DNA of 58,963 bases, the filler included, from Circinaria calcarea (lineage: Eukaryota), in the NCBI GenBank assembly GCA_051942165.1. It is 9 parts of 9 records of this genome, joined end to end, with 100 filler letters (N's around TTAATTAATTAA, not from the genome) between each part and the next. Parts side by side here need not be neighbours in the genome. Positions count along the whole stretch, not along the records: positions 6,574 to 13,044 come from JAVECS010001575.1; 8 more parts are not named here. One strand, given 5' to 3'. Under the pieces are notes generated by a model. It was not told the DNA's origin and made no database searches. It worked only from the letters and a program-made list of their open reading frames with translations. Made by a program: the position numbers and the translations under genes. This document shows, in pieces, positions 10,731 to 11,055 of this stretch (position 1 is the first letter of the stretch; each line of letters starts with the position of its first letter).

Positions 10731-10738
10731 AAAAAAAA
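10731..10738 (-). terminator. T8 run, Pol III-type terminator candidate
   Basis: TTTTTTTT lies just after the last UUCG hairpin and closing helix of the RNA candidate. Confidence 0.5.
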
Positions 10739-11055
10739 CTGCAGCAGTACACCCCGAAGGGTTCCACGGTCATTTCTATATACCCACTTGCGTCCCTACC
10801 CACCTAGGGGCTGGCAAGCTTTATGTACATAGAAAATGACCGGAGAATTACACCTTGCGGCGGACAACCCTGCTCCTTAGAATGCCACCGGGCCCGAAGG
10901 AGCAGCGTATGGATGAATTCTAGGGCCCTCAATACTACGCCCGCACCAATAGAACCTGCCTAGGGCCGAGCCATCACGGGGAATCGACCTTGCGGTCGAA
11001 ACAGCATGATGACCCGACCTTTCGGGAAGCCTACCAATGAACACGCACGCCAAGT
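10731..11055 (-). ncRNA. Candidate structured non-coding RNA (~320 nt), family unidentified; 5' end uncertain
   Basis: Several long helices whose imperfect pairs are G.U only on the minus strand, C(GCAA)G and C(UUCG)G tetraloops, and a terminal T8 run at 10738-10731. Confidence 0.7.

What the first reader, a model, noticed from the sequence alone, without database searches (positions are those of the whole stretch)
10731..11055. Unannotated ~320-nt highly structured RNA gene candidate with a Pol III-like T8 end
Seen on the minus strand: (1) a 15-bp helix 11019-11005 / 10978-10964 with four G.U pairs and no mismatches, capped by TCGACC-GCAA-GGTCGA (10999-10984); (2) an outer helix CATTGGTAGG/TCTATTGGTG rich in G.U; (3) a 9-bp helix CTGCTCCTT/AAGGAGCAG (10905-10897 / 10878-10870); (4) a 17-bp helix 10842-10825 / 10783-10767 with one bulge and one G.U, extended by GCTTGC/GCAAGT; (5) ACCC-UUCG-GGGT (10762-10751), then T8. 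The imperfect pairs are G.U on the minus strand but would be A.C on the plus strand, which points to selection on an RNA rather than on DNA palindromes. An A-box-like TGGCGTAGTGG (11100-11090) and an imperfect B-box-like GGTCGATTCC are present. I could not find the diagnostic motifs of U1-U6, U3, SRP, RNase P/MRP, snR30 or tRNA. Inference: a stand-alone Pol III ncRNA of an unrecognised class, or a structured leader of the CYSTM gene that starts ~125 nt downstream.
Basis: partly seen in the sequence, partly recalled or inferred. Interest (0 to 1): 0.85.

Follow-up and report, generated by a model that had tools for sequence, protein, structure and literature searches.

The report
Orphan tetraloop-rich structured RNA gene candidate
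An intergenic stretch of about 320 bases in an ascomycete fungus looks built to fold as a stable RNA and ends in a run of eight T, so it is probably an uncatalogued small RNA gene, but no relatives or transcripts could be found to prove it.

Summary
The window is nine ~6.46-kb contigs joined by N spacers; the finding lies in contig 6574-13044.

The fold is well beyond chance. The two long hairpins score z -5.6 and -5.0 against 500 dinucleotide shuffles each. Five of the 22 CC-(GNRA/UNCG)-GG octamers in the window (both strands) fall in these 325 nt, all on the minus strand. Stable RNA tetraloops are an RNA property, so this points to an RNA read from the minus strand.

No Rfam family matches, even at E<=10. 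The tRNA scan and the RNase P and MRP P4 motif searches were negative.

Pol III transcription is plausible but not shown. T8 follows a possible closing stem and there is no internal T5. The A-box match sits inside 24-25-nt tandem repeats, and no B box fits.

No homologue or sequencing run could be obtained, so conservation, covariation, copy number and expression are untested.

Verdict: a credible orphan structured ncRNA gene (about 0.55). The class and function are unknown.

The parts
10739..11055 (-). Body of the candidate RNA. Nt 1 = 11055 is a provisional 5' end; the true start could be as far upstream as about 11125.
   Evidence: MFE -137.3, z -3.55. All five CC-(GNRA/UNCG)-GG octamers lie between 11025 and 10753. 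No ORF above 66 aa in any frame.
10731..10738 (-). T8 run, the putative Pol III terminator and source of a 3' oligo-U tail.
   Evidence: one of 5 T8-or-longer loci in the window; the only T run of 5 or more between 11160 and 10700 on this strand.
10944..11039 (-). Domain D1 (nt 17-112): a 96-nt irregular hairpin made of a 10-bp G.U-rich outer helix, a GAAA/CUA internal loop, a 15-bp helix, a 5x5 pyrimidine loop and a 6-bp helix capped by GCAA.
   Evidence: -48.3 kcal/mol, z -5.6, 0 of 500 shuffles. The complementary strand reaches only -25.2.
10984..10999 (-). TCGACC-GCAA-GGTCGA hairpin at the tip of D1. Its 3' arm carries the B-box-like GGTCGATTCC.
   Evidence: the only GNRA/UNCG tetraloop closed by 6 Watson-Crick pairs in the whole window, both strands.
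10906..10943 (-). Central, weakly paired segment (nt 113-150) holding GUAGUA and GGGCCC. The GGGCCC could pair with the GGGCCC in the loop of the next hairpin to form a 6-bp pseudoknot (inference).
   Evidence: Folds leave it mostly unpaired (domain D2 z only -1.56). The repeated CTAGGGCC is listed (D6).
10867..10908 (-). Hairpin h3 (nt 148-189): a 9-bp Watson-Crick helix CTGCTCCTT/AAGGAGCAG with an 18-nt loop; it holds one CC-UUCG-GG octamer.
   Evidence: z -2.79; 9 of 500 shuffles as good.
10851..10862 (-). Small hairpin D3 closed by CC-GCAA-GG.
10767..10842 (-). Domain D4 (nt 214-289): a 17-bp helix with one bulge and one G.U, an AUAAA/GG loop, a 6-bp helix, and a 5-bp helix with the loop GGUGGG.
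   Evidence: -36.0 kcal/mol, z -4.96, 0 of 500 shuffles.
10751..10762 (-). Terminal hairpin ACCC-UUCG-GGGU.
11045..11055 (-). 5' strand of a possible closing stem (P1). It pairs with 10750-10738, which directly abuts the T run.
   Evidence: The assignment is ambiguous: in the longer fold the same 3' strand pairs with 11125-11115 instead.
11030..11121 (-). Three to four 24-25-nt tandem units (GTRGTGGGAGCGRTA...TTGGC). They contain the A-box-like TGGCGTAGTGG (11100-11090) and a TAAAT (11083-11079). They are either a candidate upstream promoter or a leader.
   Evidence: (D3: 11082-11096 and 11107-11121, 87% alike), and the sequence.

Best explanation
A stand-alone gene for a stable, highly structured non-coding RNA of about 320-390 nt, read from the minus strand between a degenerate tandem-repeat array and the promoter of a CYSTM gene. 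Transcription, most likely by RNA polymerase III, would start somewhere between about 11125 and 11055 and stop in the T8 run (10738-10731). That would leave a 3' oligo-U tail of the kind bound by La or Lsm proteins. The RNA would fold into a closed, multi-domain body. Its parts are a terminal stem joining the two ends, two long irregular hairpins (D1 of 96 nt, D4 of 76 nt) whose internal loops are the likely protein-binding sites, and three shorter hairpins. Five helices are capped or nucleated by CC-GNRA-GG or CC-UUCG-GG. A central segment of about 35 nt is weakly paired. I read it as the scaffold RNA of a ribonucleoprotein that belongs to no catalogued family. Shown here: the structure, its strand, its statistical excess, the absence of coding potential and the absence of any known family signature. 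Inferred: the polymerase, the ends of the RNA, the RNP role, and whether it is expressed at all.
For: Structure: MFE -137.3, z -3.55. D1 z -5.6 and D4 z -5.0, each 0 of 500 dinucleotide shuffles. The neighbouring 245-bp repeat units and the spacer are not consistently structured (z +1.4 to -3.4), so this is not a regional property.

RNA-specific signature and strand: 4 GNRA/UNCG tetraloop hairpins with stems of 4 bp or more, against 0.35 expected per 325 nt (P 5e-4). Only 5 of 2208 sliding windows reach 4. 5 of the 22 CC-(GNRA|UNCG)-GG octamers of the window lie in the element, all on the minus strand. The outside rate is 0.048 per 325 nt, Poisson P 2e-9. That motif was defined after seeing the data. 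A broader definition chosen in the same script (any two Watson-Crick closing pairs) gives 7 inside against 0.92 expected, P 5e-5. D1 folds to -48.3 on the minus strand and -25.2 on the plus strand. There are 14 G.U against 2 A.C in strand-neutral arm alignments.

Gene-like layout: T8 directly follows the 3' strand of the terminal stem, and there is no T5 or longer inside. An exact A-box consensus lies 35-45 nt upstream in the right orientation. No frame is open for more than 66 aa. The region is intergenic, and the CYSTM gene has its own TATA-like and CT-rich region downstream of T8. There is no similarity to anything else in the window and no flanking direct repeats.
Against: No homologue was obtained, so there is no conservation or covariation evidence at all. 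No expression data exist.

On the whole-element measure the candidate is only 4th of 553 windows, and the plus strand is as far from its own shuffles (z -3.67) as the minus strand.

Strand asymmetry of MFE is unremarkable once G+T content is regressed out: -2.5 sd at window 10901, and window 10701 is not among the 15 largest. The G.U excess has P 0.06 given the base composition.

The A-box match is one junction of a short tandem repeat, so it may be accidental. No B box lies within one mismatch. The closing stem is weak (3-4 G.U, two bulges) and has an alternative partner.

ViennaRNA gives bonus energies to special tetraloops, which inflates fold-based counts. The octamer count does not depend on folding.

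The element lies about 230 nt from a 1.35-kb degenerate satellite, a setting where odd DNA is common.
Confidence: 0.55

Rival explanations
1. The structure is real RNA structure, but it belongs to a Pol II transcript. It would be either a long structured 5' leader of the CYSTM mRNA or an independent Pol II small RNA. On this reading the T8 run has no terminator role.
For: T8 lies only about 125 nt upstream of the CYSTM ATG at 10604, on the same strand. There is no B box, and the A-box-like match sits in a repeat. T8 runs are commoner in this window than in shuffles: 12 matches at 5 loci against 3.7 expected.
Against: As a leader, the element would place four AUG triplets and a -137 kcal/mol fold in front of the start codon (sequence). 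A TATA-like TGATAAAG and a CT-rich tract, the usual core-promoter layout in filamentous fungi (recalled knowledge), lie between T8 and the ATG. The possible 5'/3' stem ending exactly at the T run looks like a transcript end.
Confidence: 0.15
2. A Pol III-type mobile or repeat-derived unit (a SINE-like element or a relic of the neighbouring satellite) with no cellular function of its own.
For: An A-box consensus sits at the 5' side and a T run at the 3' side. The element adjoins a 1.35-kb array of 245-bp repeats and 24-25-nt repeats. Copy number cannot be judged from 58 kb of nine contigs.
Against: There is no second copy or partial copy in the window and no target-site duplication. There is no tRNA-like 5' part (ARAGORN found 0 genes) and no A-rich or simple-repeat tail. 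It shows no similarity to the adjacent repeat units, and those units lack comparable structure. A dense set of stable tetraloops is not a known SINE feature (recalled knowledge).
Confidence: 0.12
3. Not a gene: a chance or DNA-level cluster of imperfect inverted repeats in repeat-rich intergenic DNA.
For: Other windows of the same 58 kb reach the same GC-normalised MFE without being RNAs, for example the GGGAGCAC inverted repeats at 26500-26660 and the CT/GA-rich 45450-45855. Both strands give z near -3.6. The G.U bias is partly compositional. No homologue or transcript is known.
Against: DNA palindromes give no reason for GNRA/UNCG loops on one strand, yet these cluster here at P 5e-5 to 2e-9. 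D1 loses half its energy on the other strand. The sequence is not low-complexity, unlike the other outlier windows.
Confidence: 0.12
4. A very divergent member of a known family (RNase MRP, RNase P, SRP/7SL or U3 RNA) that the Rfam models miss.
For: Size, a terminal stem, a T-run end and tetraloop-rich hairpins are all typical of RNase P, MRP and SRP RNAs. GAAAGGUCGGGU (11022-11011) fits all but the last position of the RNase P CR-I pattern GNAANNUCNGNG; the pattern is recalled and the sequence is.
Against: No Rfam family scores even at E<=10 on 801-nt and 404-nt slices. There is no exact CR-I match and no CR-V match within 1 mismatch in the candidate. The near-CR-I stretch is half of a local 15-bp hairpin, not a long-range P4. 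There is no MRP 5'P4 or 3'P4 within 2 mismatches (consensus from passages of PMC1796607). That paper also says Pezizomycotina MRP RNAs carry a P10 of over 200 nt, which this element lacks. By eye I found no SRP helix-8 motif (GNRA loop followed by AGCA).
Confidence: 0.06

Closest known systems
Nuclear RNase P RNA gene of budding yeast (RPR1) and RNase P/MRP RNAs in general
   Same: A 300-400-nt, tetraloop-bearing, multi-hairpin RNA closed by a 5'/3' stem. The gene ends in a T run. RPR1 carries its A and B boxes in a leader upstream of the mature RNA (recalled), which resembles the A-box-like motif 35-45 nt upstream here.
   Different: There is no P4 pseudoknot signature (CR-I/CR-V or gaaAGuCCCC / GGGGCU) and no Rfam score. 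There is no B box, and no P3-type short helix-loop-helix.
SRP (7SL) RNA
   Same: About 300 nt, transcribed by Pol III, ending in U, with GNRA/GNAR tetraloops and paired ends.
   Different: No Rfam SRP model scores. There is no long helix 5 formed by the two ends and no helix-8 SRP54 motif (by eye). A UGUAAU occurs at nt 205-210, not near the 5' end.
Metazoan 7SK RNA
   Same: About 330 nt and transcribed by Pol III from an upstream promoter. It has a long 5' hairpin and a 3' hairpin followed by oligo-U, and it acts as a protein scaffold (recalled). This is the nearest analogue for how the RNA might work.
   Different: 7SK is known only from animals. There is no GAUC-GAUC motif in the 5' hairpin, no Rfam score, and no HEXIM partner is known in fungi (recalled).
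Fungal tRNA-derived SINEs (for example Mg-SINE, Foxy; recalled)
   Same: An A-box consensus near the 5' side and a Pol III-style unit of a few hundred bases.
   Different: There is no tRNA-like fold, no B box, no tail of A or simple repeats, no target-site duplication, and no other copy in the window. It is far more structured than a SINE.

Membership tests
Any Rfam 15 family (4227 models, incl. RNaseP_nuc, RNase_MRP, SRP families, U3, 7SK, the Afu_ sRNAs and the ascomycete telomerase RNA, as far as I recall the library's content) | Covariance-model score at or near the family's gathering threshold. | tested here: not met
   0 hits at gathering threshold in the whole window. At E<=10 only junk appears: STnc410 13.8 bits, MEG8_1 10.9 bits and MIR834 13.6 bits, against gathering scores of 50-200.
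Nuclear RNase P RNA | P4 pseudoknot strands CR-I (GNAANNUCNGNG) and CR-V (ACNNNAUNCNGANUA). Both patterns are recalled from memory. | tested here: not met
   8 exact CR-I matches in the window, none in 10731-11125. 8 CR-V matches at up to 1 mismatch, none in the candidate. The near-match GAAAGGUCGGGU is part of a local hairpin.
RNase MRP RNA | 5'P4 gaaAGuCCCC and 3'P4 acnnnanGGGGCUnannnu (PMC1796607, passages read). | tested here: not met
   58 matches at up to 2 mismatches for 5'P4 and 13 for 3'P4 in the window, both at chance level and none in the candidate.
RNase MRP RNA | GARAR loop on P8, the CR-IV motif AnAGUnA before 3'P2, and a long P10 in Pezizomycotina (PMC1796607). | not tested
   Without a P4 the helices cannot be assigned, so no formal search was run.
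SRP (7SL) RNA | Helix 8 with a GNRA tetraloop and the conserved AGCA-containing loops; a 5' Alu domain with UGUAAU (recalled). | tested here: not met
   No SRP model scores. Inspection of the sequence shows that AGCAG at nt 183-187 is fully paired in a 9-bp helix with no GNRA loop next to it.
tRNA or tRNA-derived SINE | A cloverleaf or tRNA-like 5' part. | tested here: not met
   ARAGORN found 0 genes in the window.
tRNA or tRNA-derived SINE | Internal A box plus B box. | tested here: inconclusive
   The A box matches exactly at 11100-11090, but inside a short tandem repeat. The B box is not within 1 mismatch. GGTCGATTCC needs a 1-nt gap or 2 mismatches.
tRNA or tRNA-derived SINE | Many dispersed copies with target-site duplications. 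| not testable with these tools
   No genome is held. Within the window there is no other copy and there are no flanking direct repeats.
RNA polymerase III gene (general) | A terminator of five or more T at the 3' end and none inside the transcribed region. | tested here: met
   T8 at 10738-10731. The only other T run of 4 or more between 11160 and 10700 is a T4 at 10836-10833.
RNA polymerase III gene (general) | Pol III/TFIIIB/TFIIIC occupancy; a transcript with a 5' triphosphate and a 3' oligo-U. | not testable with these tools
   No sequencing run was listed for the locus.

The most novel reading that the evidence does not exclude
This is the founding example of an undescribed family of about 320-nt, tetraloop-rich structured RNAs in ascomycete fungi. 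It would be transcribed by Pol III from an upstream repeated element plus a TATA-like box rather than from internal A and B boxes. It would act as the scaffold of a so far unknown ribonucleoprotein, a fungal counterpart in style, not in ancestry, of 7SK-, Y- or vault-type RNAs.
Probability: 0.35. Interest if true: 0.75.

Novelty: new variant of a known kind. Interest (0 to 1): 0.55.

Why it matters
Fungal Pol III transcriptomes are thought to be nearly closed sets: tRNAs, 5S, U6, 7SL, RNase P, in some lineages MRP or U3, and a few orphans in yeast. A new, elaborately folded Pol III-type RNA in filamentous ascomycetes would imply an unrecognised RNP. If the upstream repeats are its promoter, it would also be a case of external Pol III promoter architecture in fungi.

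In practice the locus gives a concrete target of a few hundred bases, testable by one Northern blot and one genome-wide BLAST. If it turns out to be species-specific and silent, it is a useful caution. Strong single-sequence folding statistics alone do not make a gene.

Tried and rejected
Own genome: none is held.

Earlier findings of this scan by place, sequence and words: nothing relevant.

Public sequencing runs: none was listed and no RNA holder was listed, so read laying could not be used.

Metagenome scan: my pattern, the GCAA hairpin plus the B-box-like arm, was a poor choice. The best BLAST alignments to the candidate were 30 nt or shorter. 16 of the 120 loci were scanned against Rfam, with 0 hits. 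L059, read, is protein-coding-looking DNA with a short non-coding gap, unrelated to the candidate.

Genome contigs (prokaryotes only): a three-tetraloop spaced pattern gave 2 bacterial loci with alignments no longer than 14 nt. One 21-mer gave 0 hits. A second 21-mer gave 0 hits in viral contigs.

Spurious-ORF trick: the 60-aa frame over nt 1-179 was searched against 1.84 billion representative proteins. It gave 3 hits at E<=1e-3 and 0 at 1e-10. All three are long proteins (332-1799 aa), two of them matched in 4 and 10 short stretches, and I read them as composition artefacts. The exact look-up of 10 ORFs, 8 of them over or beside the element, found none in the collection. That look-up read alternative start codons as their normal residue, so it is weak.

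Internal duplication of the RNA: rejected (local score 22 against a shuffle mean of 20.8; 114 of 300 shuffles as good).

Relation to the neighbouring 245-bp repeats: none.

Second A-box match at 57957-57967 next to a CR-I-like GGAAGCTCGGGG: I read the sequence, saw no obvious RNA, and did not pursue it.

Literature: four searches and three papers. I read passages of bioRxiv 10.1101/2024.07.27.605418, the outline and abstract of PMC5640933, and passages of PMC1796607. None described such an RNA, but this is a thin search and does not show that it is unpublished.

Full report
Setting. The 58,963-base window is not one locus. It is nine contigs of 6,454-6,473 bp, sorted by length and joined by N44 + 12 nt + N44 spacers. 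The finding lies in the second contig, 6574-13044. That contig carries an MMR_HSR1-type GTPase fragment at its left edge (6575-7435 +). It also carries a 214-aa single-pass membrane protein whose nearest Atlas clusters are ascomycete (8707-9348 +). On the minus strand there is a spliced CYSTM gene, with ATG at 10604, one intron, and the C-terminus ...GLCAGLLGLTACCCCLDFLI. Beyond the candidate lie about 230 nt of unique spacer, then a 1.35-kb array of about 5.5 degenerate 245-bp repeats (11285-12636, about 70% alike), then an AT-rich tract with 9-25-nt tandem repeats (12684-12911). No whole genome is held for this window.

The observation. The minus strand of 11055-10731 folds to -137.3 kcal/mol (z -3.55; 0 of 100 dinucleotide shuffles as good). 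The fold is a possible closing stem (nt 1-11 with 306-318), a 96-nt hairpin D1, a weakly paired centre, a 42-nt hairpin h3, a small GCAA hairpin D3, a 76-nt hairpin D4 and a UUCG hairpin D5. The T8 run follows immediately.

Is it more than chance? Taken whole, the evidence is only moderate. The plus strand is just as far from its own shuffles (z -3.67). In a scan of 553 windows of 325 nt, the candidate ranks 4th for GC-normalised MFE (-3.8 sd). The windows around it in that ranking are low-complexity or inverted-repeat DNA: the G-rich antisense of the CYSTM coding region, a CT/GA-rich region at 45450-45855, and GGGAGCAC inverted repeats at 26500-26660. Three further tests are more telling.

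(a) The domains taken separately are extreme. D1 scores z -5.6 and D4 z -5.0, each with 0 of 500 shuffles as good. The adjacent repeat units and spacer range from z +1.4 to -3.4.

(b) Strand. D1 is worth -48.3 kcal/mol on the minus strand and -25.2 on the plus strand. I aligned each 5' arm to the reverse complement of its 3' arm with a strand-neutral score. Of the transition mismatches, 14 are G.U on the minus strand and 2 are A.C (P 0.004). Allowing for the G+T-rich composition raises P to 0.06. MFE asymmetry is likewise unremarkable once G+T is regressed out.

(c) Tetraloops. GNRA and UNCG loops stabilise RNA, not DNA. The element holds 4 such loops on stems of 4 bp or more, against 0.35 expected per 325 nt of this window (P 5e-4). 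Only 5 of 2208 sliding windows reach that count. It also holds the only such loop on a 6-bp Watson-Crick stem in the whole window. Independently of any folding program, 5 of the window's 22 CC-(GNRA|UNCG)-GG octamers sit here, all on the minus strand. They are CCGAAAGG, CCGCAAGG twice and CCUUCGGG twice. The outside rate is 0.048 per 325 nt, giving Poisson P 2e-9. I chose that motif after seeing the data. A broader definition (any two Watson-Crick closing pairs) gives 7 against 0.92 expected, P 5e-5. I take (a) and (c) together as good evidence that the sequence has been shaped as an RNA read from the minus strand.

What it is not. Rfam 15 gives nothing at gathering thresholds in the whole window. 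At E<=10 on 801-nt and 404-nt slices it gives only noise of 10.9-13.8 bits. ARAGORN finds no tRNA. The RNase P CR-I and CR-V patterns (recalled) do not occur in the candidate. The stretch GAAAGGUCGGGU that nearly fits CR-I is one arm of a local 15-bp hairpin, so it is not a P4 strand. The RNase MRP P4 consensus strands given in PMC1796607 (passages) are absent within 2 mismatches. No frame is open for more than 66 aa. Nothing else in the window resembles the element. It has no flanking direct repeats and is not an internal duplication.

Transcription. The case for Pol III rests on four points. First, T8 comes immediately after the last helix, and nothing longer than T4 lies between 11160 and 10739. 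Second, TRGCNNAGTGG matches exactly at 11100-11090 in the right orientation, one of only 2 matches in the window. Third, a TAAAT lies at 11083-11079, about 25-28 nt upstream of a purine at 11055 that would begin the closing stem. Fourth, the two ends can pair. Each point has a weakness. T8-or-longer runs occur at 5 loci in this window. The A-box match is the junction of two units of a 24-25-nt tandem repeat (GTRGTGGGAGCGRTA...TTGGC, three to four units across 11121-11030; and the sequence). No B box lies within one mismatch. When the leader is included in the fold, the 3' strand pairs with 11125-11115 instead of 11055-11045. So the 5' end is uncertain by about 70 nt. The promoter could be internal or leader-type, as in yeast RPR1, or external (repeat element plus TATA-like box), or it may not be a Pol III promoter at all.

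The alternative that the element is the 5' leader of the CYSTM mRNA is less attractive. It would place four AUGs and a very stable fold upstream of the start codon. A TATA-like TGATAAAG and a CT-rich tract, typical of core promoters in filamentous fungi (recalled), lie between T8 and the ATG.

Relatives and expression. This is the gap in the case. It returned at least 120 loci, none alike beyond 30 nt. Scans of the prokaryotic and viral collections were negative or gave chance hits, as expected. A search of 1.84 billion predicted proteins with the longest sense-strand frame found only 3 weak hits that I read as composition artefacts. Exact look-ups found nothing. None of this says anything about whether the RNA is conserved. 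The collections available here hold essentially no fungal genomic DNA.

Mechanism proposed. About 0.55 for 'a real stand-alone structured RNA gene', of which about two thirds for Pol III. The polymerase starts between 11125 and 11055 and terminates in T8. The oligo-U tail recruits La or Lsm-type proteins. The RNA closes on itself through the terminal stem. D1 and D4 present asymmetric internal loops (GAAA/CUA, CUGUU/UUCCC, AUAAA/GG) as protein-binding platforms. The GNRA loops are free for tertiary contacts. The central segment (nt 113-150) is either single-stranded, with GUAGUA and AGAAUUCAUCCAUACG exposed, or tied to the h3 loop by a 6-bp GGGCCC/GGGCCC pseudoknot. In style this is a scaffold RNA of the 7SK, Y, vault or 7SL kind. 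Membership of each of those families was tested as far as possible and failed.

Rivals: a Pol II leader or small RNA (0.15), a SINE-like or repeat-derived unit (0.12), chance or DNA-level palindromes (0.12), and a divergent known RNA (0.06).

Novelty and verdict. Nothing in Rfam 15 matches. The four literature searches and three papers consulted describe no such RNA, but that search is shallow. If real, it is a new RNA family of a familiar general kind. The single-sequence evidence is unusually good.

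Noticed in passing
window 6474-6573, 13045-13144, 19611-19710, 26175-26274, 32738-32837, 39301-39400, 45856-45955, 52410-52509: The window is nine separate contigs of 6,454-6,473 bp, sorted by length and joined by N44 + 12 A/T bases + N44 spacers. 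Any feature that appears to span these points is an artefact, and the 'repeats' every ~6,550 bp are the spacers.
   Followed up: yes
window 11285-12636: About 5.5 tandem copies of a ~245-bp unit, only ~70% alike. They are rich in small palindromes and hold a recurring TCGCTTCGGTGGAAT on the plus strand. They lie directly upstream (in the minus sense) of the RNA candidate. They are not consistently structured (z +1.4 to -3.4) and no significant copy (E<=1e-3) was found in the other eight contigs.
   Followed up: partly
window 12684-12911: AT-rich tract (GC 17-19% in the 325-nt windows starting at 12601 and 12701) with tandem repeats of 9-25-nt periods (TAAT/AAAT-type units), between the 245-bp array and the contig end.
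   Followed up: no
window 11030-11121 (minus strand): Three to four 24-25-nt tandem units, each GTRGTGGGAGCGRTA...TTGGC. The reverse complement CGCTCCCACTACG loosely recalls the plant snRNA upstream element RTCCCACATCG (recalled). This could be a promoter element or a coincidence.
   Followed up: partly
window 26500-26660: A dense set of direct and inverted copies of GGGAGCAC/GTGCTCCC in intergenic DNA, giving one of the most stable folds in the window on both strands. It looks like a cluster of binding sites or a palindromic element rather than an RNA.
   Followed up: partly
window 25989-26174: A long (AACAAAA)n-type microsatellite running into the end of a contig.
   Followed up: no
window 57943-57967 (minus strand): The only other exact A-box consensus in the window (TGGCGCAGTGG) is separated by two bases from GGAAGCTCGGGG, which fits the recalled RNase P CR-I pattern. 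Nearby windows fold moderately well on the minus strand (-2.0 to -2.6 sd). There is no Rfam hit, and reading the sequence showed no obvious RNA.
   Followed up: partly
window 47371-48429 (+): An ORF with a strong match to the Pfam T6SS Tle1-like phospholipase catalytic domain (PF09994, E 1.9e-68), on a contig that is part of this fungal assembly.
   Followed up: no
L121 and L122 (bacterial genome contigs): In both loci 10-12-nt matches to the candidate's CCGCAAGGT region recur at intervals of roughly 105-135 nt, suggesting a bacterial dispersed or tandem repeat. It is unrelated to the fungal element.
   Followed up: no
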